From Lysobacterales bacterium (lineage in GTDB: Bacteria > Pseudomonadota > Gammaproteobacteria > Xanthomonadales > SZUA-5), in NCBI GenBank assembly GCA_046346965.1, contig JAXMHB010000003.1, positions 228,778-292,777 of the forward strand: DNA of 64,000 bases, given 5' to 3'. Below, piece by piece: positions 1 through 41,044 of this stretch (positions are counted from its first letter, which is position 1; each line of letters starts with the position of its first letter). The notes beneath the pieces are model-generated. The model was not told where the DNA came from and searched no databases. It saw nothing but the letters and a program-made list of their open reading frames with translations. A program made the position numbers and the translations under genes.

Positions 1-168
1 CCGCCAGACCCAACAAAGCGACTGCATGAAGCAGCTGTAGAAGGCACCGTCGCATATCGCTACTCCGCTCTGCATGCTGCGCAGCATCGCGCGCCCAGGC
101 TGATCGCTTCCTGAGCGCGCAATTCCGGCCGATAGAGACGCTCTTGCCAATCATTGTGCTTGGGCAAA

Positions 169-285
169 AGCGGGGCGGGGGTTAGGGGGCGGGGGACCGG
201 CATTGCGGCGCCCGCGTTGCGCTGTCGCCAACTTGCAGAACAAGTAAGCACGCCGAAGGCGAGACAGGGACTCTGAAAAGTCTCG
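169..285 (+). repeat. Dispersed intergenic repeat element, copy 1 of 3 (about 115 bp). Its 5' end is G4C-G5-TTA-G5C-G5 (180-203), a canonical G-quadruplex motif
   Basis: Near-identical to 8306-8431 and partially to 20678-20720. All three are on the + strand. It produces the same spurious peptide (MPVPRPLTPAPLL) in three antisense ORFs of the track. Confidence 0.75.
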
Positions 286-418
286 ACTCTGCTGCGCGTA
301 CTCGGGCGGCAAACAGGTCCCCGCGACCGCGCGACGGCAGCGGGGCAGTGCTGGTCCCCTGCCCCTCACCCTCGCACCGCTTTCGCGCCCACGCGCTCAT
401 CTTGGGCAGGAGGCACCC

Positions 419-571
419 TAGCGCTTCTTGCTGCCGCGCTTGCGCTTGGCCTCGGGTTTCGGGGCGTCAGCGGCCTTGGGCGGCTGGTCGCCGATGATCG
501 ACTTGGCCGGGCACACGCTGAAGATCGGGCATTTGCGGCAGCCTACGGCCAGGGCGACAGGGCATAGGGTC
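419..571 (-). CDS. Small cysteine-rich basic protein, 51 aa: MTLCPVALAVGCRKCPIFSVCPAKSIIGDQPPKAADAPKPEAKRKRGSKKR. The Cys pattern is C-x7-C-x2-C-x5-C, followed by a Lys/Pro/Ala-rich tail
   Basis: Not in the ORF track (under 60 aa). ATG at 571 with GGAG about 9 nt upstream. About 90% G/C at codon position 3 in this frame. Lies immediately downstream of, and co-oriented with, the ligase/epimerase pair. Confidence 0.5.
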
Positions 572-606
572 ATGGGGATGCTCCGACGGGTGGTGGACGC
601 TGAAGC

Positions 607-8305: not shown

Positions 8306-8431
8306 GGGGCAAAAGCGGGGCGGGGGTGAGGGGGCGGGGGACCGGCACTGCAGTGCATGCGTTGCACGGTCGCCGGCTTGCAGAACGAACGAGCGCGCCG
8401 AAGGCGAGGCAGGGACTCTGAACAAGGCTCG
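8306..8431 (+). repeat. Dispersed intergenic repeat element, copy 2 of 3. The G4 motif is at 8317-8340
   Basis: Aligns with 169-285 over about 115 bp. Sits in the divergent sulfatase/pgk promoter region. Confidence 0.75.
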
Positions 8432-8514
8432 TAAGCGGCCTTGCGAGTCGGAATCGTCTGCCGCCCAGCCCTGCTCTATCCTCCGCGCAGCCTTGTCTAT
8501 CTGCAGGAGTTGCC

Positions 8515-10389: not shown

Positions 10390-11412
10390 ATGCGAGCGTG
10401 GTGTGCTGTCCTACTCTGTGTGCTCTCCCCGTGCGCCGTTCAGGCCCTGAGCCTGAGCAATACGCTGGGGGAGGACCAACGCGCCGAAACCTTGAGCGTC
10501 GAGATCGACGGGCGCGTGGTCGGGCGACTCAAGCTCGACGCCGAGCACCTGCAGGCCACGCTGCGCTTGCCTGCGGGCGCGCGCCGCTACCGGCTACAGG
10601 GAACGGCAGAGATGAGCGATGGCACACGGCTGACGGTGGCGGGCGCCGGGCTGATCGTCTCGGTCGCCGAGATGGACCGCATCGGCGAGGCAGGCCGCGC
10701 CGCGGACGCGCTCGCCGCCTATGAGGATCTGGTCCGCGCGCTGCAGGCGGCGGCGCCGGAGGTCGATCTGTCGGCGCTGCCGTTGACGCGCGGAAGGCCG
10801 GTCAGCGAGGCCGAGTTGGCCGCCGCCGAGCGCCGCCTGGGCACGCGTTTGCCCGCGGGCTATCGCGAGCAGCTGCGGACCCTCGGCGCACTGACGGTGG
10901 GACTGCCCGATGCGCCCAGCGGGCGGCTCTACGGTCCGGATGCGCTGGACACGCTGCAGGCCTGGGTGCTCGCCCGGGCCGCCGAGAACGATTCCAGTCG
11001 CCAGGAGCTGCGCGCAATCGAGGCCTTCATCGGCAAGCGCTTCCGCCCGGCACGCCAGGATCTGGTCCTCGGCGTCTGGGAACGCGACGAACCCACGCTG
11101 GTACGCGCTGGCGAGCGCTGCCCGAGCGGCGAAACACCCTACGCCTTCCCGGAAACCCAATGGGAAGTGCTGATGGGAGCTGGCCTAGACGACAACGCCT
11201 TCATGGGCCTGATCAGCTATGAGGATGACATCGTCGGCGAGACGCAGTGCCTGAGTTTTGATCGGGAACTGGCCTACTCGCTGCACGACCACCTGATCGA
11301 ACTCGGCCGCGACGCGCTCTACGTGATCGGCCCCGACGAAACCCGGATCGCGATCCAGCGGCGCGATATCGATCGGGAGCGTATTTGGTTGGGGCTGACT
11401 GAGGGGGAGTAG
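10390..11412 (+). CDS. Secreted hypothetical protein with a SMI1/KNR4 (SUKH)-like segment
   Basis: Signal peptide MRAWCAVLLCVLSPCAVQA. The central segment ELAAAERRLGTRLPAGYREQLRTLGAL resembles the SUKH/SMI1-KNR4 core motif. Confidence 0.55.
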   Translation: MRAWCAVLLCVLSPCAVQALSLSNTLGEDQRAETLSVEIDGRVVGRLKLDAEHLQATLRLPAGARRYRLQGTAEMSDGTRLTVAGAGLIVSVAEMDRIGEAGRAADALAAYEDLVRALQAAAPEVDLSALPLTRGRPVSEAELAAAERRLGTRLPAGYREQLRTLGALTVGLPDAPSGRLYGPDALDTLQAWVLARAAENDSSRQELRAIEAFIGKRFRPARQDLVLGVWERDEPTLVRAGERCPSGETPYAFPETQWEVLMGAGLDDNAFMGLISYEDDIVGETQCLSFDRELAYSLHDHLIELGRDALYVIGPDETRIAIQRRDIDRERIWLGLTEGE

Positions 11413-12640
11413 GGAATGGAACGGGAAAAGGGAAAAAGGGAAAGGGAAAAAGGAAGAGCGGCGGCCGTTGCAGAGCCCCGTAGGCAGGGTCCTTCGCGTC
11501 CGCGCTGTGCAAGACCGTCCCGTAGGCCGGGTCCTTCGCGTCCGCAGTGTGCAGCTTCGCCGCAGGTTCCCACACGCGAGGCGCCCGGCGCTGTGCTGCG
11601 GCAGGTCTGTCGACCTGGCCGCGCAGGGATCGCGATGGACCTCCGGGGTGTTGCGACCTGCCCGAAAGTGTCTCCCGAGGACCTGCGCAGGGATCTCGAT
11701 GGTGCTGCGAGGGTGTCCCGATACCCTCCCGAGGCTGTCGCGACCTGCCCAAAGGTATCTCGCGAGGACTTGCGCGGGTCTGTCGATGACCTCGCGAGCC
11801 TGTCCCGAGGCCCTGCGCGCATGTCGCGATGTGCTTGCGAGGGTGTCCCGACGTGCTGCGAGCAGATCGCGATGGGCTCGCAGGGGTGGACCTGTGGGCT
11901 TGCGAGGATATCGCGATGAGCTCGCAGCCCCACCGAAGAACCTCGACAGCGTGTCGCGACAGGGTCGTGGCTATGTCGGGACAGCCTCACCGGGTCGTTG
12001 CGATAGGGTCCGCAGCGTATCGCGATAGGCTCGAAAGGTGGTCGGGTGGGGCTCGAAAGGGTGTCGCGACAGGGTCCGCAGGGTATCGCGATATCCACGC
12101 AGGACATCGGGACCTGCGCGCGGGCCCGTCGTGATGGGCTGGCATGCAGGTCCGCAGAGGCGCCGAGGCTGTCGGGAGGGGGCGGCCGGTATAGCCGGGC
12201 AGCGCGATGAGCGTGGTCTGGCGCTCGGCTACCCCGATCCGGAGCGAGTTGTCTTCCGGATGGAAGAGGGAAAAGGAAAAAGGGACAAAGCGCGACCAGC
12301 AAAAGCCGCGGCCGCCGGCGCGATGAATGGCGGTCGCATTAAAGACGCTGCGGCGCGCACGGAGCCGCGCTACATTGCGCCTGGGACGCCGTGAGCCGCC
12401 ACTCCCTTTTTCCCACGGGGCGGGTGGGCAGCGGGGCGATTGGTAGAGAGTGAAAAGTGAAAAGTGAAAAGTGAAAGGAAAAGCCGCGGCCGCCGGCGGA
12501 TCGGACAAGGGTCGCGAGATGAACCCGACTGCGCGCACCGAGCCGCGCTGCGCGACGCTTGCAAGGAACTGTGAAAGGGCAGCGAGCGCTTCACCTTTAA
12601 CTTTTAACTTTTAACTTTTCACTCCATATCCCACCCATCC
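11413..12640. repeat. 1.2 kb non-coding repeat-rich region with several repeat classes. Purine-rich SSRs: (GGAAAAG)n at 11416-11460 and 12262-12290, (GTGAAAA)4 at 12448-12476, (TTTTAAC)3 at 12596-12622. Degenerate tandem units of about 87 and 44 bp. Duplicated blocks of about 150 bp. About 11 phased TCGCGA palindromes
   Basis: Three overlapping spurious ORFs on both strands show no codon-position GC periodicity, unlike flanking genes. All repeats were read directly in the sequence. Confidence 0.7.
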
Positions 12641-13957
12641 TCACCCCACCGGCAACCGCACCACCACCACGCAGCCGCGCGCGTCGGGGCGGTTGGACAG
12701 CGTCAGCGTGCCGCCGTGGTTCTCGGTGATCTGCCGCGCCAGCACCAGACCGACGCCGCTACCGCCGGGTTTGGTCGTGTAGAAGGGCACGAACAAGTTG
12801 TCGGTCTTGGCGAGGCCGGGGCCGTCGTCTTCGATCTCGATCTGTACCCAGTCGTTCTCGGCGTTCAGTCGGATGCGAACGCCGCCATCGGTTTCGAGCG
12901 CGGCTTCGGCGGCGTTCTTGGTCAGGTTGATCAGCGCCTGTTCCAGTTGATCGGGATCGGCATGCAGGCGGATCTCCGGCCAGTCGCCGATGGCAATGCT
13001 GCGGCGCTGTTCCAGCCGGGCGACGCGGCGCAGCAGTCCGGACAGCTCGACCTCCCGCTTGTGCGGCGGCGGCAGGCGCGCCAGTCGGGTGTAGGTGGAC
13101 ATGAAGCGCGTCAGCGACTCGGCGCGATCGCCGATGATGCCGAGCGCGCCCTGGACGTCCTCGCGCCAGTCCTCCGGCAAGGGCTCGCGCGCCACGATGC
13201 CGACTAGCGTGGCCGCCATCGAACGGATCGGCGCCAGCGAGTTATTGAGCTCATGGCCGAGCACGCGGATCAGGCGCTGCCAGGCCTGGCGCTCCTCCTC
13301 ACGCAGCGCGCGCGACAGATCGGTGATCGCCAGCAGTTCGTGCGGGCGACCGCCCTCGCGAAAGGCCGCGCGGCGCAAATCGAAGCTGCCGGCGCCGCCC
13401 GGGAAGGCGGTCTTCAGCGTCGCCGGTGTCTCGGCTTCACAGCAGGCGTCGAGGCCCAGTTCGCGCGCCGTGCGTCCCAGCGCCTGGCTGGCCGGCAGTG
13501 CCAGCAAGCGCTCGCCGGCCGGGTTGATCAGTTTGAGCTGACGCTGATCATCGAGCGCAAAAATGGCGATATCGACGTTCGCCAGCACCTTGGTCAGCAG
13601 CGCGCCCGACTCCTCGACCTTGAGGCGCTGCTCGCGCAGCGTGCTGGCCAGCGCGTTGACCTCCCACAGCACTTCCCCGAGCGCATCGCCGCGCCGCGCC
13701 GAGATGCTGCGCAGACTGTAGTCACCGGCGCGCAGCGCATCGAGCAGATTCACCAGCGTCAGCAAAGGGTGCACGACCTCGCGCCGCAAGCGCCGCCACA
13801 GCCAGGCGGTCAGCGCCACCAGTGCAGCCATCGCCCCGAAACGCAGACCCGGCGTCCCGTCCAGCCGCCACAGGTACACGCAGGCCAGCACCAGCGCCGG
13901 CAGCACCAGCAGCACCGACCAGAGCCCGACCCGCAGCTCGTAGCGCAGGCGGCTCAT
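12641..13957 (-). CDS. Sensor histidine kinase with 2 TM helices, HAMP/PAS, HisKA and HATPase_c domains
   Basis: H-box LGHELNNSLAPI and G-boxes DDGPGL and GGSGVGL. Start chosen at MSRLRYEL. The track ORF extends into the repeat arrays. Confidence 0.85.
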   Translation of the reverse strand: MSRLRYELRVGLWSVLLVLPALVLACVYLWRLDGTPGLRFGAMAALVALTAWLWRRLRREVVHPLLTLVNLLDALRAGDYSLRSISARRGDALGEVLWEVNALASTLREQRLKVEESGALLTKVLANVDIAIFALDDQRQLKLINPAGERLLALPASQALGRTARELGLDACCEAETPATLKTAFPGGAGSFDLRRAAFREGGRPHELLAITDLSRALREEERQAWQRLIRVLGHELNNSLAPIRSMAATLVGIVAREPLPEDWREDVQGALGIIGDRAESLTRFMSTYTRLARLPPPHKREVELSGLLRRVARLEQRRSIAIGDWPEIRLHADPDQLEQALINLTKNAAEAALETDGGVRIRLNAENDWVQIEIEDDGPGLAKTDNLFVPFYTTKPGGSGVGLVLARQITENHGGTLTLSNRPDARGCVVVVRLPVG

Positions 13958-13969
13958 TGGAGCGCCCAG

Positions 13970-14328
13970 AAGCCGAGGGCCCGAAAGCCGAGGGCACGAG
14001 GGCACGAGGGCACGCAAAAGCCGAGGGCACGAGGGCACGAGGGCACGAGGGCACGCGAAAGCGCAGGCACAAGCGGAAGCAACAGCAGTCCTGCCGCATG
14101 CGGATGCAGACCTGCCGTCGGCACCGCCGCCCACAACGCCATGCTGCGATCACCGCGGGGAGCCGCAAGGTCCCCCGGCACCCGCTTCTGCGTGCCCTCG
14201 TGCCCTCGTGCCCTCGTGCCCCGGCTTCTGCGTGCCCTCATGCCCTCATGCCCTTCTGCCTCCGCCTCTGCGTGCCCTCGTGCCCTCATGCCCTTCTGCC
14301 TCCGCCTCTGCGTGCCCTCGTGCCCTCG
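13970..14328. repeat. Inverted arrays of tandem 8-mers filling the intergenic region. (GAGGGCAC)n units are on the left arm (13970-14063) and (GTGCCCTC)n units on the right arm (14184-14328), around a unique core of about 120 bp
   Basis: The left units AAAGCCGAGGGCACGAGGGCACGAGGGCACGC are exact reverse complements of the right units. Fills the gap between the regulator stop and the kinase start. Confidence 0.75.
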
Positions 14329-14338
14329 CAAATCCGCT

Positions 14339-15721
<1,383 letters not shown>

Positions 15722-15932
15722 GCGGGTGTCCGTTGGTGCAGGAATGGAGCGCGCTACGCAGTTTACGTGCCAGGCCGCAGACAGCACGCGCTGGCACGGG
15801 CAGCGCACAACAGTGTCCGATTCCGGACAGCAAAAGCGATCAGCCGTCCGCCTTCATACAACGGTCGTCAGGCCGTCACGCCGCTGTTGCCTGGGCTGCG
15901 CACAGTCCGCGCCATCGCCAGAGGAGCATCTC

Positions 15933-19807: not shown

Positions 19808-20647
19808 GTGAGCATGCCCGCCGCCAGCGACTGGTTCCGGGCCGCCTGCCAGCGCGAACTGGAGCGGGCGCACGCGCTACTGGCCGACCCGGCGGCGGAC
19901 CGCAATGCGGCCGTGCACGAGGGCCGCAAATCGCTGCGCCGCGTGCGCGCCTGGCTGCGCCTGCTGGAACGGCCGCGCCGCGAGGCTTTGCACGCGGTGG
20001 ACCAGTCGATCCGCTCGCTGCGACGCACCATCGGACCACTGCGCGATGCTGCCTCGCGCATCGAAGCGCTGGATCGCCTGCGCCAGCGCAAAGCCCTGCG
20101 CCCTGCCCGCACGCTGCTGGCACGCGCGCGCCGGCAGTTGGCCAAGGATCTGGCGCAGCGTTGGGCGGCCAAGCCGATCGACGGCGGCGCCTGGACGCGC
20201 TTGCTCGGCGCGCTGGCGCAACTGGCAGCCGACGTCACCGGCTGGCCGCTGGACGGACTCAGCGAGGCCGAACTGCGCCTCGGCCTGCGGCGCGCGTTTT
20301 TGCGCGCCTGCCGCGAACGCAAGCTGTGCGCTGGCCGTCAGGCTGCCGTCGTGCGTCACGCCTGGCGGGGCAAGGTGCGCATCGTCTTGCTGCAGGGCCA
20401 GTTGCTCGCCAGTTGCGGCAGCGTACCGGGCCTCGACGCCTTGAAGCGACTGGCGCAGAGCCTGGGCAATGAGAACGACCTCGCCCAGGTGTCGCGCGTG
20501 CTTGGCCGGATCGGCTTGAGCGATGCGACGCGGCTGTCGATGCGTCGACTGGTGCAGCAGCAACGCCGGCTGCTCGCCCAGCGCAATGACCAGCGCGCCG
20601 AATCCCTGTTGCGACCGCGATTGCTGCCGAGCTGGCAGCTCGGCTGA
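19808..20647 (+). CDS. CHAD-domain protein
   Basis: Alpha-helical, with conserved HExRKxLRRVRAWLRL-type CHAD motifs. Confidence 0.6.
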   Translation: MSMPAASDWFRAACQRELERAHALLADPAADRNAAVHEGRKSLRRVRAWLRLLERPRREALHAVDQSIRSLRRTIGPLRDAASRIEALDRLRQRKALRPARTLLARARRQLAKDLAQRWAAKPIDGGAWTRLLGALAQLAADVTGWPLDGLSEAELRLGLRRAFLRACRERKLCAGRQAAVVRHAWRGKVRIVLLQGQLLASCGSVPGLDALKRLAQSLGNENDLAQVSRVLGRIGLSDATRLSMRRLVQQQRRLLAQRNDQRAESLLRPRLLPSWQLG

Positions 20648-20677
20648 GTGCCTGGAAGGAAGAGCGGGACGAACAAC

Positions 20678-20720
20678 AGCGGGGCGGGGGTCAGGGGGCG
20701 GGGGACCGGCATTGTCGCCT
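20678..20720 (+). repeat. Dispersed repeat element, copy 3 (truncated, 5' G4 part only). G-runs at 20682-20705
   Basis: CAGCGGGGCGGGGGTCAGGGGGCGGGGGACCGGCATTG matches copies 1 and 2. Confidence 0.7.
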
Positions 20721-20731
20721 TTGCGTGGCTG

Positions 20732-20873
20732 GTCCCGAGTCCCGAGTCCCGAGTCCCGAGTCCCGAGTCCCGAGTCCCGAGTCCCGAGTCCCGAGTCCCG
20801 AGTCCCGAGTCCCAGTCCCAAGTCCCAGTCCCGGGTCCCGAGTCCCGGGTCCCGGGTCCCGAGCCCAGGGTCC
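20732..20873. repeat. Heptanucleotide microsatellite (GAGTCCC)n. Ten perfect units at 20739-20808, flanked by degenerate units
   Basis: Read directly in the sequence. Lies about 110 bp upstream of the Grx-fusion gene start. Confidence 0.85.
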
Positions 20874-20983
20874 CGCCCTTTCACCCACCCGGCCAGCGCT
20901 TCCTTAACACCTCGGTCACGCGCAGTCGCGGCGGCGGCGCTATCCTGATGCGATTGCTTGCTGATCTCAAAAGGATGCTGACC

Positions 20984-21901
20984 ATGACCGATGCCACCCG
21001 CGCACGGATCGAGAAACTGCTCTCCGAGCATCGCGTCGTCCTGTTCATGAAGGGCACCCGTCACGCGCCGCGCTGCGGCTTTTCCGCCACCGCTGCGGGC
21101 ATCCTGAACGATCTGCTGGAGGACTACGCCAGCGTGGACGTGCTCGCCGACGAGGCCATCCGTCAGGGCATCAAGGACTACGGCAACTGGCCGACGATCC
21201 CGCAGCTGTACGTCGATCAGGAGCTGATCGGCGGCTCGGACATCATCAGCGGCATGCACAACTCGGGCGAGTTGCACGATCTGCTCGGCGTGCCGCGCCC
21301 GGATCGCTCGGCGCCCAGCATCGAGATCACGCCCGCCGCCGCCGAGGCCATTCGCAACGGCATGGCCGACGAGCCCGGCATGGCGCTGCATCTGTCCATC
21401 GACGGCCGCTGGCAGGCGCAGTTCATGCTCAAACCGGCGCAGGGCCACGAGATCCGCGCCGAGAGCCAGGGCATCGCCGTGCTGATGGATCTGGCAACCG
21501 CCCAGAAGGCGCGCGGCATGCGGGTGGACTGGGTCGACGACGTGCGCGGCAGCGGGCTGACGATTCAGCTGCCCGAAGCGCCGGCCGGCGTGCAGCCGCT
21601 CAGCGTGGAGCAACTGGCCGAGCGCCTGCGCGCGGGCACGATCACCGTGATCGATGTGCGCCCGGAAGCCGATCGCGCCCGCGCTCCCTTCGTCGCGGCG
21701 CGGGTGCTCGACACGGCGCTGATGCAGGAAGCCGCGCAGTGGCCCAAAGACCGTCCGCTGGCTTTTTTGTGCCACTACGGCAATTCCTCGCGCCAGGCCG
21801 CCGAGCGCTTCCGTGGCCTCGGTTTTCGCCAGATCTACAACGTCGATGGCGGGATCGACGCGTGGTCGCAGCGCGTGGACCCCAGCATTGCCCGTTACTG
21901 A
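20984..21901 (+). CDS. Monothiol glutaredoxin (Grx4/GrxD-type, CGFS) fused to an IscA/HesB-like domain lacking the Cys ligands and a C-terminal rhodanese domain
   Basis: KGTRHAPRCGFS and WPTIPQLYVDQELIGG in the Grx domain. The middle segment ITPAAAEAIRNG...LHLSIDG is IscA-like. The rhodanese domain has active-site Cys in CHYGNSS. Start chosen by alignment to GrxD. The track ORF extends upstream into the repeats. Confidence 0.75.
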   Translation: MTDATRARIEKLLSEHRVVLFMKGTRHAPRCGFSATAAGILNDLLEDYASVDVLADEAIRQGIKDYGNWPTIPQLYVDQELIGGSDIISGMHNSGELHDLLGVPRPDRSAPSIEITPAAAEAIRNGMADEPGMALHLSIDGRWQAQFMLKPAQGHEIRAESQGIAVLMDLATAQKARGMRVDWVDDVRGSGLTIQLPEAPAGVQPLSVEQLAERLRAGTITVIDVRPEADRARAPFVAARVLDTALMQEAAQWPKDRPLAFLCHYGNSSRQAAERFRGLGFRQIYNVDGGIDAWSQRVDPSIARY

Positions 21902-22019
21902 GGGAATTCCCGTTATTTCACACGGGGCGTGCTTGCATTGCTTTTTGAACTAGAGCACGCTTTTAGCAAGTTACGCGAGAAAGATCAGCTAAGTCATCGA
22001 CAGAACGGGAGGTTCGACG

Positions 22020-22325
22020 ATGCGTGCGCGCTTTGTGTGGATGCTGGGCATGATGCTCGCCTTAAGCGCCTGTGGTGGCGGCGCGGACCCTGGGACCAGT
22101 CTGTGTGCGGCCGAGGCGAAGACCCGGATGGGCGATCAGGTGTTCCGCCTGGACGAGAGTCTGCTGACCAAGGAAACGCAGCCGGACGGCAATCTCAAGT
22201 ACCGCGGCGAGGTCAAACTCAATCCCGGCACGCCGCGCGAGACCACCCAGACCTTCGATTGCATGGTGGCGCCCGCCAGCGGCAACACACCGGCGCGCGT
22301 GATCAACTTCCAGTTCAACTGGTAA
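22020..22325 (+). CDS. Small lipoprotein (hypothetical)
   Basis: Signal peptide plus lipobox LALSAC. Confidence 0.6.
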   Translation: MRARFVWMLGMMLALSACGGGADPGTSLCAAEAKTRMGDQVFRLDESLLTKETQPDGNLKYRGEVKLNPGTPRETTQTFDCMVAPASGNTPARVINFQFNW

Positions 22326-22411
22326 GGCCTTTCCCGGTCGCTTGACCGGAGTCAACATGCGTCCCCGGGACGCGCGCTATTGCAGGGCTTCCGCCGCAAC
22401 CGGAAGCCCTG

Positions 22412-23539
22412 ATGCCTAACCGCCTCCCCAAAGCCGACCGCCAGCGCGCCAAAGTGCGCCTGGTGCAGCGCGGCGACACCGTGCCCAGCCTGGTACCGCG
22501 TGCGCTGGAACAGCATGTCTCCCAGGAAGTGGGTGCAGCAGCCCAAAGCCAGCTGGGATCCGCGGCACTCAGCTTGCTGGACGCGGCCTCCGGCAGTGCC
22601 GCTGATCGCGCCCGCCAGCTGCGCGCCTTGTTGGAAGGAGCCTCGGAGGACGATCGAGCCGCGCTGCGTGCGGCTCTGCTGGGCGGCGAGCCGACGGAAG
22701 ATCAGGCCGGCAATCCGGACGAAGTGCTGGCCAGCGACTGGCGCGATGGTGGCTACCCCTATCGCTATCTGTTGCGCCGATCGAGCTACGAGAAGCAGAA
22801 GTTCAAGCTGCAGGTCGAGTTGCTGAAGCTGCAAGCTTGGGTCAAAGACACCGGGCAGCGCGTGGTGATCCTGTTCGAGGGGCGCGACGCTGCCGGCAAG
22901 GGCGGCACCATCAAGCGCTTCATGGAGCACCTGAATCCGCGCGGCGCACGCGTCGTCGCGCTCGAAAAGCCGAGCGAGATTGAACGCGGCCAGTGGTACT
23001 TCCAGCGCTTCATTTCGCATCTGCCGACTGCCGGCGAGATCGTGCTGTTCGACCGCTCCTGGTACAACCGCGCCGGGGTCGAGCGCGTCATGGGCTTCTG
23101 CAGCGAGCGCGAATACGCCGACTTCATGCGCCAGGCACCGGAGTTCGAGCGCCACCTCGTCCACAGCGGCGTGCATCTGATCAAGTTCTGGTTCAGCGTC
23201 AGCCGCCCGGAGCAGCGCCGCCGCTTCCGCGAGCGCGAAGCACATCCGCTGAAGCAATGGAAACTGAGCCCGATCGACCTCGCTTCGCTGGACAAATGGG
23301 AGGACTACACGCGCGCCAAGGAGGCGATGTTCTTTGAAACCGACACCGCGGACGCGCCGTGGACGGTGGTCAAGAGCGACTGCAAGAAGCGCGCACGCCT
23401 GAACGCGATGCGCTACGTGCTGCACACCTTGCCGTATCACAACAAGGATGCCGCGCAGATCGGCAAGCTCGACCGCCTGATCGTTGGTCGCGCCCATGTG
23501 GTCTATGAACGCGGCGAGCGGCCGGCGACGGTTTTGTAG
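22412..23539 (+). CDS. ppk2: Polyphosphate kinase 2 (PPK2 family) with an N-terminal extension of about 100 aa
   Basis: PPK2 Walker A FEGRDAAGKGGTIK and lid motifs. Domain length about 270 aa. Confidence 0.9.
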   Translation: MPNRLPKADRQRAKVRLVQRGDTVPSLVPRALEQHVSQEVGAAAQSQLGSAALSLLDAASGSAADRARQLRALLEGASEDDRAALRAALLGGEPTEDQAGNPDEVLASDWRDGGYPYRYLLRRSSYEKQKFKLQVELLKLQAWVKDTGQRVVILFEGRDAAGKGGTIKRFMEHLNPRGARVVALEKPSEIERGQWYFQRFISHLPTAGEIVLFDRSWYNRAGVERVMGFCSEREYADFMRQAPEFERHLVHSGVHLIKFWFSVSRPEQRRRFREREAHPLKQWKLSPIDLASLDKWEDYTRAKEAMFFETDTADAPWTVVKSDCKKRARLNAMRYVLHTLPYHNKDAAQIGKLDRLIVGRAHVVYERGERPATVL

Positions 23540-32913: not shown

Positions 32914-32986
32914 GCCTAACGGCGGGAGTCGAACCCGCTACCCAGTCATTCTCAGTGACTTGCTCTACCGGATGAGCTACGTTGGT
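32914..32986 (-). tRNA. tRNA-like sequence A, possible pseudo-tRNA. Class-I cloverleaf with anticodon loop CTGAGAA (anticodon GAG) and two mismatches in the acceptor stem
   Basis: D-arm GCTC-ATCCGGTA-GAGC and T-arm GCGGG-TTCGACT-CCCGC were read manually. Bacterial tRNA-Leu(GAG) should be class II, so this looks non-canonical. No CCA is encoded. Confidence 0.4.
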
Positions 32987-32995
32987 CTTGCGACC

Positions 32996-33066
32996 GGTGG
33001 ATCGCCATGGAGTCGAACCATGTCCTCCCGCGTCCGGCGGGCGCTCTACCGCTGAGCTAGCGAACC
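32996..33066 (-). tRNA. tRNA-like sequence B, probable pseudo-tRNA. Good D-arm, T-arm and acceptor stem, but the anticodon arm is only 15 nt, with a 5-nt loop or a non-canonical 7-nt loop (C33)
   Basis: GGTTCGC-TA-GCTCAGCGGTAGAGC...CATGGTTCGACTCCATG-GCGATCC-ACC was read manually. One T-T mismatch in the acceptor stem. Confidence 0.35.
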
Positions 33067-35350: not shown

Positions 35351-36910
35351 TCAGAGCGCGCGGTCGATCAACTCGGTCGGCAGACTGGCGCCCGGCGCCC
35401 GCTGCACGCGCAGGCGCAGGCGGATGCCGATCAGGTCGAGAAAGTCCTTTTCCTGGCGCAGATCGGCCCAGGTCAGCGGATGCTGGGTCAACCAGCCGCG
35501 CGGGAACACCACGCGCAGCTCGCGACCCTGGACTTCCAGCTCCAGCGCCGGCAAATCCTCGGCGGAGCGCGAGCGGTGCAGCACCACGGCCAGCCGGAAC
35601 AGCGCCAGCGTGCGCTTCAAGCCCTCGACATCGCGCGGCGACACGTCCTCGAAGGTGTGCTCGGGAATGCTGCGCCGGTGCCCGCGCACCAGCGCCGCCA
35701 CCGCCTCCTGCTCCTGACGCGAGAAGCCCGGCAGGTCGCTGTTCTCGATGATGTAGGCGCCGTGCTTGTGATGCTGCGTGTGCGAGATCGCCAGACCGAT
35801 CTCATGCACCAGCGTGGCATAGGTCAGCGTGTCGCGCGCCTCCTCGCCCAGACGCCAGGGCGCCGCCACCGCATCGAAGAGCTTGAGCGCAGTGGCCTGC
35901 ACGCGCAGCGCTTGCGTTTGGTCGACGGTGTAGCGCTTGGCCAGCGTCAGGATGCTGCGCTCGCGCGGATCCTGATGCTGGAATCGCCCCAGCGTGTCGT
36001 ACAGCAGGCCCTCGCGCATGGCGTAGTCGCTGACTCGCAGCGTCTGCAGTTCCAGCAGTTCGAAACAGGTCCACAGCGCTGCCAGTCCGCCCAGGAACAC
36101 CGGACGGCGGTCCTCGCTCAAGCCGGGCAGGCGCGCGCGCTGGATCATGCCGACTTCGATCAGGCGCTCGATCAGATCGAGCAAGCCTTCGCGCGTCACT
36201 TCGCGCTCGCGTCCGCCGAAAGCGGTCAGGATCGAGGCGATCGACTTGATCGTGCCGGAACTGCCGATCACGCGCTTCCAGCCGCGCGCCTTGTAGGCAG
36301 CCAGGATCGGCGCGAACTCGATCGGCAGCCGCAGCAGCGCGTCCTGCCAGCGCTTGCGGGTGATGCGACCGTCGGCGAAAAAGCGCTGCGTGGTGGCGAC
36401 GCAGCCCATCTGCAGGCTCTCGGTTTCCAGCGTCTCGAAGCCCTGGCCAATGATCAGCTCGGTACTGCCGCCGCCGACATCGATGACCAGCTGGCGTTGG
36501 CGCGGATCGTTCAAGCCGTGGGCGACGCCCAGATAGATCAGGCGCGCCTCCTCACGGCCCGAAACCACCTCGATCGGTGCGCCGAGGGCCGTTTCTGCCG
36601 TCATCAGGAAGGCGCGCGGCGCCCGCAGCTGGCGCACGCTGTTGGTGGCGACCGCGCGGATGCGGTTGCGCTGGATGCCGCGCAGGCGCTGCCCGAAGCG
36701 CGCCAGCGTGGCGATCGCGCGATCACGGACCTCGGGCGCCAACTGGCCATCGGCGGTCAGGCCGGCGGCCATGCGCACCGGGTCGCGCAGGCGATCGATC
36801 ACCTGCAAGCCGCCCTCGGTGAAACGCGCGACAATCATGTGGAAGCTGTTGGAGCCGATGTCGACGGCGGCCAGCGGCTCGTGATCGATCCACTCGGATT
36901 TATCACCCAT
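35351..36910 (-). CDS. ppx: Exopolyphosphatase / guanosine pentaphosphate phosphohydrolase (Ppx/GppA)
   Basis: Ppx-GppA N-terminal motifs (AAVDIGSNSFHMIV, DVGGGSTE) plus the HD-like C-terminal domain. Confidence 0.9.
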   Translation of the reverse strand: MGDKSEWIDHEPLAAVDIGSNSFHMIVARFTEGGLQVIDRLRDPVRMAAGLTADGQLAPEVRDRAIATLARFGQRLRGIQRNRIRAVATNSVRQLRAPRAFLMTAETALGAPIEVVSGREEARLIYLGVAHGLNDPRQRQLVIDVGGGSTELIIGQGFETLETESLQMGCVATTQRFFADGRITRKRWQDALLRLPIEFAPILAAYKARGWKRVIGSSGTIKSIASILTAFGGREREVTREGLLDLIERLIEVGMIQRARLPGLSEDRRPVFLGGLAALWTCFELLELQTLRVSDYAMREGLLYDTLGRFQHQDPRERSILTLAKRYTVDQTQALRVQATALKLFDAVAAPWRLGEEARDTLTYATLVHEIGLAISHTQHHKHGAYIIENSDLPGFSRQEQEAVAALVRGHRRSIPEHTFEDVSPRDVEGLKRTLALFRLAVVLHRSRSAEDLPALELEVQGRELRVVFPRGWLTQHPLTWADLRQEKDFLDLIGIRLRLRVQRAPGASLPTELIDRAL

Positions 36911-36911
36911 G

Positions 36912-38987
36912 TCAGCCTCCGCAGATCCGCGCCAGCAGCGAGGCCTGCGCTGAGTGCGGCATGTCCTCGCCGGTCAGCACACGCGTGTAGCGGCCTTCGG
37001 CATCCAGCTGCCAGGCCTGGGTGTTGTCCGCCATGTAGTTCTCCAGCGTTTCGTTGAAGACGCGCTGGCGCAGCTCCGGATCGAGGATCGGGAAGCAGGT
37101 CTCGACGCGATGCAGCAGATTGCGTTCCATCCAGTCGGCGCTCGACGCGTACAGCTCCTCGTCGCCGTTGTTGCGGAAGTAGTACACCCGGCTGTGTTCC
37201 AGCAGACGCCCGACGATCGAATAGACGCGGATGTGCTCGCTGACCTCCGGCACCCCGGGGCGCAGCACGCAGATGCCGCGGATGAACAACACGATCTCGA
37301 CGCCGGCCTGCGAAGCCCGATACAGCGCCTCGATCACCTGCGGCTCGCTGAGGGCATTCATGCGCGCAAGGATTTTGCCGGCACGCCCCTTGCGCGCGTG
37401 GTCGGCTTCGCGGTCGATCTTGTGAATCAGCTCCGGCAGCAGCGTGAAGGGCGAATGCAGCAGCCGCTTGAGCTTCATCGCCTGACTCAGGCCAGACAGC
37501 TGCTGGAACAGCTTGTGCACATCCTCGCCGATGTCGCGATCGCAGGTAATCAGGCCAATATCGGTGTAGATCGCCGAGGTTCCCTGATGGTAGTTGCCCG
37601 TCCCCAGGTGCACATAGCGCTTCGGCTTGCCGTCCTCGCGGCGCACGATCAGCAGCATCTTCGCGTGCGTCTTGTAGCCGACCACGCCATAGACCACCTG
37701 CACGCCGGCTTCCTGCAAACGATTGGCCAGATCGATGTTGGCTTCCTCGTCGAAGCGCGCGCGCAATTCGACCACCACCGTCACGTCCTTGCCGGCGCGG
37801 GCGGCCTCGATCAGGTAATCCACCAGCACCGAGCGGCGGCCGGTGCGGTACAGCGTCTGTTTGATCGCCAGCACATCGGGATCGTGCGCCGCCGTCTTCA
37901 ACAGGTCGACGACGGTGGAGAAGCTGTCGTAGGGATGGTGCAGCAGCACATCGCGCTCGCGCACCAGATCGAACACATTGCCAGCGGTCTTGGACTGCTG
38001 CACGCGCGGCGTGAACGGCCGGTATTTGAGATCCGGCCGATCCACCATGTCGTACACCGCGGCCACCCGGTTCAGATTCACCGGGCCGTTGACGCGGTAC
38101 ATATCGTCCTCGGTGAGTTCGAAGTGCTCCAGCAGGAAGTGACCGAGCGCGCGCGGGCAGGTGTCGGTGATCTCCAGACGCACGGCGCGGGCAAAGCCGC
38201 GGTCGAGCAACTCGTCTTTCAGTGCATGGGCCAGGTTGTCGACGTCGAACTCGTCCACCCACAACTCGCTGTTGCGGGTGACCCGGAAGGGATAGACGCC
38301 CTTGACCTTCATGCCCGGGAACAGGTCGTCGACGAAATCCTGCAGGATCGCCGACAGCAGCACGACATCGTTGTCGCTGGACGCCACTTCCTTGGGCAGG
38401 CGCACCAGACGCGGCAGCGAGCGCGGCGCCCGCACCAGCGCGAGATCGGCCTCGCGACCGAAGGCGTCCTTGCCCTTCAGCACGACCGCCATGTTCAGAC
38501 TTTTGTTCAGGATGCGCGGGAAGGGGTGCGCCGGGTCCAGCCCCAGCGGACTCAGCACCGGCATCAACTCTTCGTGGAAGTAGTGGTGCAGCCAGCGCCG
38601 CTGGCGAGCATTCCATTCATCGCGACTGAGGAAGCGGATACCGGCCGCATTCAGTGCCGGCTTGAGCTCCTGATTCCAGGTCTGATACTGCTCGCGCATC
38701 AGATCCAGCACTTCCTCGCGGATCGCGGCCAGCACATCGGTGGGACTGCGGCCGTCCGGCCACGGCTTGCTGCCCAGGAAGTTCAGCTGATGGCGGATGG
38801 TGGCGACGCGAACCTCGAAGAACTCATCCAGATTGGTGCACGAGATGCACAGGAAGCGCAGCCTTTCCAGCAGCGGCACCCGCGCGTCCTGCGCCTGCGC
38901 AAGCACGCGGCGATGGAAGGCCAGCAAGCTGGTTTCACGGTTCAGAAACAGGCGCGTATCGCGAAGAGTCACGGCAGCAACGGTCAT
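36912..38987 (-). CDS. ppk: Polyphosphate kinase 1
   Basis: Full-length PPK1 homology (LSFNxRVLQEA-like N-terminus, catalytic His regions). A ppk-ppx operon. Confidence 0.95.
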   Translation of the reverse strand: MTVAAVTLRDTRLFLNRETSLLAFHRRVLAQAQDARVPLLERLRFLCISCTNLDEFFEVRVATIRHQLNFLGSKPWPDGRSPTDVLAAIREEVLDLMREQYQTWNQELKPALNAAGIRFLSRDEWNARQRRWLHHYFHEELMPVLSPLGLDPAHPFPRILNKSLNMAVVLKGKDAFGREADLALVRAPRSLPRLVRLPKEVASSDNDVVLLSAILQDFVDDLFPGMKVKGVYPFRVTRNSELWVDEFDVDNLAHALKDELLDRGFARAVRLEITDTCPRALGHFLLEHFELTEDDMYRVNGPVNLNRVAAVYDMVDRPDLKYRPFTPRVQQSKTAGNVFDLVRERDVLLHHPYDSFSTVVDLLKTAAHDPDVLAIKQTLYRTGRRSVLVDYLIEAARAGKDVTVVVELRARFDEEANIDLANRLQEAGVQVVYGVVGYKTHAKMLLIVRREDGKPKRYVHLGTGNYHQGTSAIYTDIGLITCDRDIGEDVHKLFQQLSGLSQAMKLKRLLHSPFTLLPELIHKIDREADHARKGRAGKILARMNALSEPQVIEALYRASQAGVEIVLFIRGICVLRPGVPEVSEHIRVYSIVGRLLEHSRVYYFRNNGDEELYASSADWMERNLLHRVETCFPILDPELRQRVFNETLENYMADNTQAWQLDAEGRYTRVLTGEDMPHSAQASLLARICGG

Positions 38988-39037
38988 CGGGAAAGGCTCA
39001 CAAGCTATCAGAAGCGCCGCAGCTGGCGGCGCCGATC

Positions 39038-40330
<1,293 letters not shown>

Positions 40331-40354
40331 CGCGCGATCATCCCACCGCAGTCA

Positions 40355-41044
40355 TCAGGTTGTCGTCGAGAAGCGGTAGCCGGCGCCACGTACGGTCTGC
40401 ACGTAATCTTCGAGCTTGAACGGCTCCAGGCTCTTGCGCAGGCGGCGGATATGCACGTCCACCGTGCGCTCTTCGACGTACACACCGCTGCCCCAGACGT
40501 TGTCGAGCAACTGGCCGCGCGTGTACACGCGTTCCGGATGGGTCATGAAGAAGGCCAGCAAGCGGTACTCGGTGGGACCGAGCGGCACCGGCTTGTCTTG
40601 CGCGAACACGCGATGGCTGAGTGTATCCAAGGTCAGACCGCCGAGACTGACGGTTTGGCCCTCGCCGTGCGGCTGGGTGCGGCGCAGCACGGCGCGGATG
40701 CGTGCGATCAGCTCGCGCGTGGAGAAGGGTTTGACGATGTAGTCGTCAACGCCGGCATCCAGGCCGATGACCCGATCATCTTCCTCGCCGCGCGCGGTGA
40801 GCATGATGATCGGAATCTCCTTGGTCAGCTCGTCACGCTTGAGCCGGCGCGCGAACTCCAATCCGCTGGCGCCCGGCAACATCCAGTCGAGCAGGATCAG
40901 GTCCGGCAGTCGCTCGGCGATCAGATGGTGCGCGCCGCGGCTGTCTTCGGCCAGCATCGGCACCAGACTGGCGCGCTTGAGCGCAAAAGCAATCATGTCT
41001 CGAATGGCGGTTTCGTCTTCCACCACCAGCACGCGCTGTTCCAC
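40355..41044 (-). CDS. phoB: Phosphate regulon response regulator PhoB
   Basis: OmpR/PhoB-family REC plus winged helix. VLVVEDE N-terminus. Confidence 0.9.

What the first reader, a model, noticed from the sequence alone, without database searches (positions are those of the whole stretch)
169..285. Dispersed ~115 bp intergenic element with a canonical G-quadruplex motif, three copies in 21 kb
Copies at 169-285, 8306-8431 and 20678-20720 (truncated) share AAAGCGGGGCGGGGGT-N-AGGGGGCGGGGGACCGGCA-TTGC. Copies 1 and 2 stay aligned for about 115 bp through ...GCAGAAC(A/G)A...CGCCGAAGGCGAG(A/G)CAGGGACTCTGAA. All copies are on the same strand. The conserved head, G4-C-G5-(TTA/TGA/TCA)-G5-C-G5, is four G-runs of 4 or more with 1-3 nt loops, a textbook intramolecular G4. 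Copy 2 sits in the divergent sulfatase/pgk promoter region. Copy 3 sits next to the heptamer microsatellite. This is a REP/MITE-like family whose structure-forming core could affect transcription or replication.
Basis: seen in the sequence. Interest (0 to 1): 0.6.

Follow-up and report, generated by a model that had tools for sequence, protein, structure and literature searches.

The report
G-run-ended intergenic hairpin repeat family
The three G-rich copies are real, but each G-quadruplex "head" is one arm of a long intergenic hairpin repeat that sits mostly just after stop codons in an uncultured Lysobacterales genome. This is a local variant of the G-tract repeats already described in Xanthomonas, whose function is still unknown.

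Summary
Observation confirmed. A 33-nt head, GCGGGGCGGGGGT-N-AGGGGGCGGGGGACCGGCA, occurs exactly three times on the + strand (none expected by chance). Copies 1 and 2 align over about 125 nt at 86% identity.

- A fourth, degenerate, inverted copy lies at 320-396. With copy 1 it forms one hairpin unit of about 240 bp (RNA z = -8.8).
- Copy 3 is not simply truncated. Its head pairs in register with the adjacent (GTCCCGA)n microsatellite, which is its C-rich partner arm.
- The same design occurs in two related uncultured Xanthomonadales: an A-rich tract plus GC, a 24-nt block of four G-runs, a spacer, then the inverted block. It starts 5-39 nt after a stop codon.

Within the family the G-runs never vary (0/126 pairwise differences). 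Flanks differ at 35% and the central loop varies. Strains whose flanking genes are 85-98% identical have or lack the element.

The closest known thing is the Xanthomonas GGGAATC G4 repeat class (Rehm 2015). It is not a REP. The MITE test is inconclusive: no target duplication was identifiable and no transposase lies in the window.

With a G4 energy term, paired units fold as hairpins; only the solo copy 2 prefers a G4.

Most likely role, inferred: a dispersed transcript-end or mRNA-stability hairpin. Moderate interest; a new variant of a known kind.

The parts
156..396 (.). Complete inverted-repeat unit: copy 1 plus its inverted partner. It folds as one long hairpin.
   Evidence: RNA fold of 155-400: MFE -153.4 kcal/mol, z -8.8, 0/200 shuffles as good. 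DNA parameters give z -6.4. The minus-strand RNA gives -132.9.
162..205 (+). Copy 1 head, the left arm: GGGCAAAAGC, then the 24-nt four-G-run block (172-195), then ACCGGCATTG.
206..295 (+). Central region of the unit. It is shared with copy 2 and includes CGCCGAAGGCGAG.CAGGGACTCTGAA.
   Evidence: It is not found in the units of other genomes.
320..396 (-). Degenerate inverted head, the right arm. Reverse complement: GGGCGCGAAAGC GGTGCGAGGGTGAGGGGCAGGGG ACCAGCACTGC... The G-block remnant occupies 356-378.
   Evidence: blastn E 4e-7 and 3e-9; nhmmer E 4.9e-11; alignment A1. The arm starts about 21-25 nt, and the block 39 nt, after the stop (418-420) of the 51-aa ORF at 418-573(-).
8306..8436 (+). 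Copy 2: a solo left arm plus central region with no inverted partner. G-block at 8317-8340.
   Evidence: With a G4 energy term the MFE contains a 4-layer G4 (-82.6 versus -59.5 kcal/mol without it). It lies 77 nt from the sulfatase start and 79 nt from the pgk start.
20674..20714 (+). Copy 3 head, the left arm. G-block at 20681-20704, starting 33 nt after the stop (20645-20647) of the CHAD-domain gene 19808-20647.
   Evidence: Independent assemblies of the same species carry the head at the same site (L036 and L037).
20715..20728 (+). 14-nt loop of the copy 3 hairpin.
   Evidence: Fold.
20729..20875 (-). Right arm of copy 3: TGGCTGGTCCC followed by about 21 units of GTCCCGA (G-rich, GGGACTC, on the - strand). 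The first four units pair in register with the four G-runs of the head.
   Evidence: TRF: 20732-20875, period 7, 20.9 copies. Fold of 20668-20760: -52.3 kcal/mol, z -3.4. The 9-mer GCTGGTCCC also begins the right arm of unit 1 at 351-359.

Best explanation
The three copies belong to a small family that, within the collections and patterns searched here, was found only in this lineage. It is a family of intergenic inverted-repeat units.

A full unit has these parts, in order:
- a purine/A-rich tract plus GC;
- a 24-nt block of four G-runs;
- a spacer of 14-150 nt;
- the inverted block, ending in GCTTT(T).

Copy 1 with 320-396 is a full unit. Copy 3 with the heptamer microsatellite is a compact unit. 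Copy 2 is a solo half.

The family is the local version of the G-tract repeat class described in Xanthomonas. That class has four-tract arrays, convergent inverted pairs, and a position about 28 nt after the upstream stop codon.

Shown here: the architecture, the extreme conservation of the G-runs, dispersal to unlinked loci, and presence/absence between near-identical strains.

Inferred: the units are co-transcribed with the upstream gene and fold into a very stable stem bracketed by an A-tract and a U-tract. That stem would act at the transcript 3' end as a termination or pausing signal and/or a barrier to 3'-5' exonucleases, as REP/BIME and ERIC elements do. New copies arise by an unidentified duplicative mechanism. 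A G4 is predicted as the ground state only where the partner arm is missing (copy 2), and as an even alternative in copy 3.
For: Architecture. Long hairpins well beyond shuffles:
- window 155-400, z -8.8;
- L004 1980-2190, z -5.3;
- L040 7085-7295, z -7.6;
- copy 3 with its first repeats, z -3.4.

Same design in relatives. L004 carries GAAGC-GGGGGCAAGGGGCAGGGGGCAGGG and its inverse. L040 carries (GGGGCA)4 arms. Both blocks are 24 nt.

Position. G-blocks start 33 nt (copy 3), 39 nt (inverted copy 1), 7 nt (L004), 5 nt (L040) and 36 nt (L020) after a co-oriented stop codon. Rehm et al. report a mean of 28 nt, a preference for four units, 70-75 convergent pairs per genome, and transcripts that start or stop in the repeats more often (PMC4692102).

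Hairpin rather than G4 as the common denominator. Other units in the window have arms that cannot form a G4: (AGTGAAA)4 / (TTTAACT)4, starting 15 nt after a kinase gene's stop, z -4.65. Others use a different G-tract unit, (CGAGGGCA)n, z -12.7. With the ViennaRNA G4 term, paired units keep the hairpin.

Flanks. Every head is preceded by RAA(A)GC. This gives GCUUUU or GCUUUC after the C-rich arm.

Constraint. 0/126 pairwise differences at the 21 non-loop block positions, against 87/252 in the flanks and 8/18 in the loop. Between copies 1 and 2, 1/41 head positions differ against 15/75 elsewhere, p = 0.0096.

Turnover. L020 has the element after coaD. L034 and L035 (98% identical CoaD), L021 (95%) and L023 (91%) do not. 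L036 and L037 (98% CHAD) have it, while L038 (85%) does not.
Against: - There is no expression or 3'-end data for this organism.
- The stems and loops are far outside canonical intrinsic terminators, and the consensus terminator scan found nothing in the units.
- The U-tracts are only 3-4 nt, and L040 has UU only.
- Two units lie between genes that look co-transcribed: korA-like/korB-like in L004, and response regulator/kinase at 13958-14338. A strong terminator would be harmful there.
- Copy 2 sits in a divergent promoter region, not after a stop codon.
- What lies upstream of copy 1 is unknown because the window starts there.
- Only 64 kb of this genome could be read, so copy number is unknown.
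- Proximity to stop codons could come from purifying selection on insertions rather than from function.
Confidence: 0.5

Rival explanations
1. A purely selfish, non-autonomous transposable element (MITE-like). The G-rich ends are terminal inverted repeats recognised by a transposase encoded elsewhere. The hairpin and the G4 potential are by-products. The position near stop codons reflects where insertions are tolerated or targeted.
For: - Terminal inverted repeats, 180-240 bp in size, no coding capacity, intergenic.
- Homologous sequence at unlinked loci, and in another organism's coaD locus.
- Presence/absence between strains with 98% identical flanking genes.
- Short-read contigs end inside the head (L020, L036, L037).
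Against: - No target-site duplication could be identified. The only candidate, TCAT at unit 1, is out of register by 1 nt. None could be seen at L004.
- No transposase, RAYT or integrase domain in about 50 ORFs of the window.
- Arm sequences differ between units while the design is kept. This is unusual for transposase-recognised ends.
- The exact head is absent from 185,579 representative genomes and occurs once more in JGI metagenomes.
Confidence: 0.25
2. The intramolecular G-quadruplex, in DNA or RNA, is the functional core. It modulates promoters (for example sulfatase/pgk at copy 2), replication or translation.
For: - G4Hunter about 3.0.
- Four G-runs preserved in 8 of 11 heads across three organisms although the loops differ (C, CAA, AAA, TNA, GCA).
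- All substitutions within the family fall in the central loop.
- Solo copy 2 is predicted to adopt a 4-layer G4.
- Related GGGAATC repeats form G4s in vitro (PMC4692102).
Against: - In paired units the hairpin beats the G4 in the energy model.
- Units of identical design and position have arms that cannot form a G4, and these too have exactly 4 units.
- The inverted partner of copy 1, L004c and L040c each have only 3 intact G-runs.
- Heads occur on both strands.
- Rehm et al. found no regulatory role.
Confidence: 0.12
3. Multi-copy small RNA genes. One candidate is a C-rich transcript from the minus strand acting on G-rich targets, in the manner of Xanthomonas sX13. That comparison is recalled from memory and was not tested.
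For: Size of about 115-130 nt and intergenic location.
Against: - No Rfam family reaches threshold. The only match is a sub-threshold hit to a plant miRNA hairpin.
- No promoter-like or terminator-like sites flank the copies.
- Single halves do not fold better than shuffles, z about -0.8.
- No covariation in the post-head region.
Confidence: 0.04
4. An array of binding sites for a protein that recognises G-tracts or structure, such as a nucleoid-associated factor or a helicase.
For: Absolute conservation of the G-runs and of the flanking AAGC and ACCGGCA. The block is nearly mirror-symmetric.
Against: No candidate protein is known. Arms of other units differ completely in sequence.
Confidence: 0.05

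Closest known systems
Xanthomonas GGGAATC / Nostoc GGGGA(C/T)T G4-forming repeats (Rehm et al. 2015, PLoS One, PMC4692102)
   Same: - Same bacterial order.
- Intergenic G-tract arrays with a preference for exactly four tracts.
- Frequent convergent inverted pairs, one array on + and one on -.
- Placement a few tens of nt after the upstream stop codon.
- Length and sequence variation between close relatives.
- Function unknown.
- A closely related heptamer (GGGACTC)n forms the partner arm of copy 3.
   Different: - The heads are not GGGAATC tandem repeats. They are G4-5 runs with 1-3 nt loops.
- Copies share conserved non-repeat flanks (AAAAGC, ACCGGCAYTG) and, for copies 1 and 2, an 85-nt core. 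This shows copying of one ancestral sequence rather than independent microsatellite growth.
- Copies are gained or lost between near-identical strains. The Xanthomonas repeats are 83% conserved in place between Xcc and Xac.
REP / BIME / REPIN elements (recalled from established literature)
   Same: - Dispersed and intergenic, often just after stop codons inside operons.
- Inverted doublets form long hairpins.
- They are known to stabilise upstream mRNA.
   Different: - A single head is not a palindrome.
- There is no GTAG motif.
- No RAYT gene was seen.
- The units are 180-240 bp rather than about 35-110 bp.
ERIC/IRU and Correia-type MITEs (recalled from established literature)
   Same: Imperfect palindromes of 100-250 bp in transcribed intergenic DNA, with presence/absence polymorphism. 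They are thought to act through RNA hairpins, including RNase III processing and effects on mRNA stability.
   Different: - No sequence relationship.
- No TA or other target duplication could be identified.
- The arms are G-run arrays.
Bidirectional intrinsic terminators (A-tract, GC-rich hairpin, U-tract; recalled from established literature)
   Same: AAAAGC-stem...stem-GCUUUU symmetry. Located after stop codons, and in L040 between convergent genes.
   Different: - Stems of 24-60 bp and loops of 14 to more than 100 nt, against 5-14 bp and 3-8 nt.
- U-tracts of only 2-4 nt.
- Some units lie inside apparent operons.

Membership tests
Xanthomonas-type G4-forming G-tract repeats (Rehm 2015) | Tandem heptamers containing GGGAATC / (GGGANTN)n, at least 2 units | tested here: not met
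   The head is GGGGCGGGGG-TNA-GGGGGCGGGGG and contains no GGGAATC. Only the partner arm of copy 3 is a heptamer array, and its unit is GGGACTC.
Xanthomonas-type G4-forming G-tract repeats (Rehm 2015) | Preference for four G-tracts | tested here: met
   24-nt blocks with four G-runs occur in W1, W2, W3, L020, L036, L004a, L004b, L040a and L040b. Three runs occur in the inverted copy 1, L004c and L040c.
Xanthomonas-type G4-forming G-tract repeats (Rehm 2015) | Intergenic, and close to the stop codon of the upstream ORF (mean 28 nt) | tested here: met
   Distances are 33, 39, 7, 5 and 36 nt for five heads. Copy 2 is an exception, lying between divergent promoters. Copy 1 cannot be judged because the window starts there.
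Xanthomonas-type G4-forming G-tract repeats (Rehm 2015) | Convergent inverted pairs able to form stem-loops | tested here: met
Xanthomonas-type G4-forming G-tract repeats (Rehm 2015) | G4 formation in vitro (CD, K+ dependence) | not testable with these tools
   Prediction only: G4Hunter about 3.0 and the ViennaRNA G4 model.
REP / REPIN | Each repeat is a short imperfect palindrome | tested here: not met
   The head alone folds at -7.1 kcal/mol without a G4. Half-units give z about -0.8.
REP / REPIN | Conserved GTAG-type 5' motif and an associated RAYT transposase | tested here: not met
   The motif here is AAAGC. No Y1 transposase domain was found in the window ORFs.
MITE | Terminal inverted repeats, small size, non-coding | tested here: met
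   Unit 1 (156-396), L004 1986-2180 and L040 7098-7279.
MITE | Target-site duplication | tested here: inconclusive
   No convincing duplication at unit 1 or L004. The full/empty pairs could not be aligned across the junction: L020 versus L034, and L040 versus L039. L020 is cut by its contig end, and the L039 spacer is too diverged.
MITE | Insertion polymorphism | tested here: met
   The coaD 3' site: L020 has it, while L034, L035, L021 and L023 lack it. The CHAD 3' site: the window, L036 and L037 have it, while L038 lacks it.
MITE | A cognate autonomous element with the same ends; many copies per genome | not testable with these tools
   Only 64 kb of the MAG was available and it is not in the contig index. 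There are 4 heads in 64 kb. The exact head is absent from GTDB representatives.
Intrinsic (bidirectional) terminator | GC-rich stem with a 3-8 nt loop, followed by a U-rich tract | tested here: not met
   The consensus scan finds none in the units. Loops are 14 to more than 100 nt and U-tracts are 2-4 nt.
Any Rfam RNA family | Score at or above the gathering threshold | tested here: not met

The most novel reading that the evidence does not exclude
The units are bistable transcript-end switches. The G-rich 5' arm is transcribed 14-150 nt before its C-rich partner and can fold first into an RNA G-quadruplex. That would withhold it from the A-tract/stem/U-tract hairpin. Termination or mRNA protection at the gene's 3' end would then depend on K+, on G4 helicases or on G4-binding proteins. 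This would give the unexplained 'exactly four tracts' rule of Xanthomonadales repeats a mechanism. Copy 3, where the G4 and hairpin folds are isoenergetic (-64.8 versus -64.0 kcal/mol), would be the clearest example.
Probability: 0.1. Interest if true: 0.75.

Novelty: new variant of a known kind. Interest (0 to 1): 0.4.

Why it matters
The G-tract repeats of Xanthomonas have been known for a decade without a function. This locus adds three observations.

- A sister lineage keeps the same design: four G-runs, inverted pairs, a position just after stop codons, and A/U-tract flanks. It does so with different sequences.
- The G-runs are under very strong constraint.
- Neighbouring units of identical design have arms that cannot form G4s.

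Together these shift the working hypothesis from 'G4 element' to 'transcript-end hairpin whose arms happen to be, or compete as, G4s'. They also suggest clean mutational tests. In practice, such heads break short-read assemblies: three of three independent contigs reaching a head end inside it.

Tried and rejected
- Exact-pattern scan of the head in 185,579 representative genomes. It returned 2 unrelated hits, a coding Gly-rich stretch and a low-complexity G-rich region.
- The same scan in JGI metagenomes returned 13 loci. Only L020 is homologous beyond the G-runs. L011, L014, L015, L018 and L019 are a G-rich stretch conserved in a 71% GC organism that reads as coding sequence; this was not tested.
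- Viral contigs: no match for the head or the tail. Plasmids: no match.
- Rfam at gathering threshold gave only two tRNAs. At the E-value threshold it gave only a sub-threshold plant MIR1437 hairpin on both strands, which reflects 'long hairpin' and nothing more.
- Folding each half-element alone as RNA on either strand is not better than shuffles.
- A conserved small hairpin after the head was considered, on the basis of an apparent C-G to T-A change. RNAalifold gave no covariation support.
- A sigma-54 -24/-12 promoter in GGCAC-N-TGCA of copy 2 was considered and rejected by eye because the spacing is one base short. No sigma-70-like promoter was found.
- GC skew over the window is too weak to assign leading or lagging strand.
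- The MAG itself is not in the contig index. Copy number, strand bias and target duplications genome-wide therefore could not be obtained.
- Alignment of full and empty sites (L040 versus L039) was too diverged to define insertion boundaries.
- My first coordinates for the small ORF (419-582) were wrong. The correct coordinates are 418-573.

Full report
**1. The observation**

The 33-nt head GCGGGGCGGGGGT-N-AGGGGGCGGGGGACCGGCA matches exactly at 170-202, 8315-8347 and 20679-20711, always on the + strand. None of 100 dinucleotide-preserving shuffles gave a match. The tail CGCCGAAGGCGAG-N-CAGGGACTCTGAA is present only in copies 1 and 2. Those two copies stay aligned for about 125 nt at 86% identity. 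These are the only three places in the 64 kb with four runs of G4 or more and loops of 1-3 nt. They are also the only three with G4Hunter >= 2 (about 3.0 each).

**2. Where the window comes from**

The window's phosphoglycerate kinase is 100% identical to a protein of a 'Lysobacterales bacterium' MAG on a 409-kb contig. The small ORF beside copy 1 is annotated there as MFO1493877.1. The window is ordinary chromosome. It carries pgk, polyphosphate genes, phoBR, efp, and rpoA-S11-secY. About 50 ORFs scanned against Pfam showed no transposase, integrase or RAYT domain. The MAG is not in the contig index, so only these 64 kb of the genome could be examined.

**3.

*Unit 1.* A sensitive self-search found a fourth, degenerate copy of the head plus about 40 nt on the minus strand at 320-396. 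It is 77% identical to copies 1 and 2 (E 4e-7 and 3e-9; nhmmer E 5e-11; alignment A1). It lies tail-to-tail with copy 1. Region 155-400 folds as one hairpin:
- RNA, + strand: -153.4 kcal/mol, z -8.8, 0/200 shuffles as good.
- DNA parameters: z -6.4.
- Either half alone: no better than shuffled sequence.

The degenerate arm begins 21-25 nt after the stop codon (418-420) of the 51-aa ORF at 418-573(-), in that gene's sense. Its G-block begins 39 nt after the stop.

*Copy 3.* The head is followed by a 14-nt loop and then TGGCTGGTCCC plus about 21 units of GTCCCGA. The same 9-mer GCTGGTCCC opens the right arm of unit 1. The first four heptamer units pair in register with the four G-runs (-52.3 kcal/mol, z -3.4). 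The 'neighbouring microsatellite' is therefore the C-rich partner arm of copy 3, expanded by slippage. Copy 3 is a compact full unit, not a mere truncation. Its G-block starts 33 nt after the stop of the CHAD-domain gene.

*Copy 2.* This is a solo left arm plus core with no partner. It sits midway between the divergent sulfatase and pgk starts.

**4. The same design in relatives**

*L004-L007.* These are MAGs GCA_021404805 and GCA_019187485, with pgk 88% identical to the window's. A unit lies between a POR-family gene and a TPP_enzyme_C gene (korA-like and korB-like by my reading).
- The left arm is gaGAAGC-GGGGGCAAGGGGCAGGGGGCAGGG, with its G-block starting 7 nt after the stop.
- The inverse arm is tgAAAAGC-GGGGAAAGGGGCAAGGGGCAGGGG, about 130 nt later.
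- The fold gives z -5.3.
- A third head lies just upstream of the same gene.

*L040 and L041.* These come from another relative, with pgk 87% identical. (GGGGCA)4 arms start 5 nt after the stop of a polyprenyl-synthase gene (z -7.6). The orthologous spacer in L039 is 123 nt long and has no arrays.

All these G-blocks are 24 nt long and are preceded by purine/A-rich sequence plus GC. Their cores are unrelated to the window's core. The broad class therefore shares a design, whereas W1, W2, W3, L020 and L036 share ancestry.

**5. Constraint and turnover**

Among W1, W2, W3 and L020 (an unlinked coaD locus from another metagenome), pairwise differences distribute as follows:
- 21 non-loop positions of the block: 0 of 126 comparisons.
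- 3-nt central loop: 8 of 18.
- 42 flanking positions: 87 of 252.

Between copies 1 and 2 the head differs at 1/41 positions and the rest at 15/75 (p = 0.0096).

Copies also come and go.
- L020 carries the element right after coaD. L034 and L035 (98% identical CoaD), L021 and L022 (95%), L023 (91%) and L024 (86%) do not carry it.
- L036 and L037 (98% identical CHAD protein) carry the copy 3 head, with loop GCA instead of TCA. L038 (85%) has an unrelated tandem repeat at that site.
- All three short-read contigs that reach a head end inside it: L020, L036 and L037.
- The exact head is absent from 185,579 species-representative genomes. It was found only once more among JGI and ENA metagenome contigs.

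**6. Comparison with what is known**

The closest description is Rehm et al. 2015 (PMC4692102). It reports the following:
- Xanthomonas campestris and X. citri carry about 185 intergenic GGGAATC arrays each.
- The arrays show a marked preference for four units.
- They lie on average 28 nt after the upstream ORF and 160 nt before the next one.
- There are 70-75 convergent inverted pairs per genome.
- The arrays form G4s in vitro.
- Transcripts start or stop within them more often than in controls.
- No function was found.

The present family meets the positional, four-tract and inverted-pair criteria. It fails the sequence criterion, because it has no GGGAATC. Unlike those arrays, its copies share non-repeat flanks and a core, which shows duplication of one ancestral sequence.

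It is not a REP, since the head is not palindromic, there is no GTAG and no RAYT was seen. It has no Rfam family. It meets the MITE criteria of terminal inverted repeats, size and insertion polymorphism. No target duplication could be identified and no cognate transposase is available, so membership is undecided.

**7. Hairpin or G4?**

Three results argue that pairing, not the quadruplex, is the common denominator.

First, when ViennaRNA's G4 term is allowed, all paired units keep the long hairpin. Only copy 2, or copy 1 deprived of its partner, switches to a 4-layer G4 (-82.6 versus -59.5 kcal/mol). Copy 3 is a tie at -64.8 versus -64.0.

Second, the window holds other units of the same design and position whose arms cannot form a G4. 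One has (AGTGAAA)x4.0 and (TTTAACT)x4.0 arms, starting 15 nt after the histidine-kinase stop, with z -4.65. These arms also have exactly four units.

Third, another unit uses a different G-tract repeat, (CGAGGGCA)n and its inverse. It lies between a sigma-54 response-regulator gene and its kinase gene, with z -12.7.

On the other side, the absolute conservation of the G-runs, with variation only in the loop, is what a G4 or a specific binding protein would predict. A co-transcriptional G4 could form before the partner arm is made. That possibility is kept as the 'novel case'.

**8. Most likely mechanism**

This section is inference. The invariant AAAGC before each G-block becomes GCUUU(U) after the C-rich arm on the other strand. 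A full unit therefore reads A-tract / GC-rich stem / U-tract in both directions. That is the layout of bidirectional intrinsic terminators, but with far longer stems, large loops and short U-tracts.

The position just after stop codons, together with Rehm's transcript-end enrichment, suggests a transcript 3'-end structure. It could cause termination or pausing, act as a barrier to 3'-5' exonucleases, or both, as established for REP/BIME elements. I hold this at about 0.5.

The points against are these:
- No expression data exist for this organism.
- The consensus terminator scan is negative.
- Two units lie inside apparent operons.
- Copy 2 lies in a promoter region.

The main rival is a purely selfish MITE-like element (0.25).

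**9. Verdict**

The feature is real and non-random. It is a new sequence family, but a variant of a published class, and the function of that class is still open. The added value lies in three points: the link between the G4 head, the inverted partner and the microsatellite; the evidence of strong constraint on the G-runs; and the non-G4 sister units, which point to hairpin function. Interest is moderate (0.4).

Noticed in passing
window 12435-12640: An inverted pair of exactly four heptamers: (AGTGAAA)4 at 12449-12476 and (TTTAACT)4 at 12596-12623, with a spacer of about 119 nt between the two arrays. On the gene's strand it starts 15 nt after the stop of the histidine-kinase gene 12641-13957(-). 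It forms a long hairpin (z -4.65) and has no G4 potential.
   Followed up: partly
window 13958-14338: Large inverted arrays of an octamer: (CGAGGGCA)~10 at 13974-14055 and (CGTGCCCT)~17 at 14191-14328. They lie between the sigma-54 response-regulator gene 14339-15808(-) and the kinase gene start at 13957. The RNA fold is -270 kcal/mol, z -12.7. AAAGC motifs flank the arrays here as well.
   Followed up: partly
window 11423-11455: A (GGGAAAA)x4.7 array starting 10 nt after the stop (11412) of a SUKH/SMI1-domain gene. No inverted partner is nearby.
   Followed up: no
window 11413-12640, especially 11649-12135: A stretch of about 1.2 kb with no convincing gene. The ORF 11319-12302(-) has no Pfam hit. 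The stretch is packed with 21-87-nt tandem and inverted repeats containing GTGTCCCGA, TCGCGAT and GTCGCGACAGGGTC.
   Followed up: no
window 418-573 (-): A 51-aa Cys-rich, Lys/Arg-tailed ORF (MTLCPVALAVGCRKCPIFSVCP...). It has no Pfam or NCBIfam family. The identical protein is present on 11 contigs, and the other cluster members' contigs are about 1-1.6 kb long. That may mean assemblies break at the adjacent repeat unit.
   Followed up: partly
L020 1-60; L036 5700-5738; L037 999-1038: Three independent short-read contigs end inside the G-run head. After GGGGGGCAG, L037 continues into unrelated sequence. This may reflect repeat collapse or G-rich coverage drop-out.
   Followed up: no
L038 1167-1294: In the 85%-identical relative, the site of copy 3 is occupied instead by a tandem repeat of about 26 nt, CCGGAGCGCCGGTTTGTNGAA.
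   Followed up: no
L024 1914-1972: The heptamer (GGGACTC)x8-9, the same unit as the partner arm of copy 3, also occurs in the 88% relative. That repeat type is therefore shared across the clade.
   Followed up: no
L011, L014, L015, L018, L019 (e.g. L014 5040-5200): A conserved GCGGGGCGGGGGACCGGGGGCGGGGGAC stretch in five metagenome contigs of a 71% GC organism. It reads as coding sequence (Gly-rich, then a Cys-x-x-Cys motif), though this was not tested. It is unrelated to the element.
   Followed up: no
window 19808-23536 and 35354-41044: A polyphosphate-related neighbourhood. It comprises a CHAD-domain gene, a glutaredoxin/Fe-S/rhodanese fusion (20975-21901), PPK2 (22412-23536), Ppx (35354-36910), PPK1 (36915-38987), and phoR/phoB-like genes (39041-41044).
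   Followed up: no
window 168-384, both strands: The only Rfam signal is a sub-threshold match to the plant MIR1437 precursor (27.9 bits against a gathering score of 168). I take it to reflect only the long-hairpin shape.
   Followed up: yes
window 32914-33066 (-): Two adjacent tRNA genes (Rfam 53.7 and 49.7 bits).
   Followed up: no
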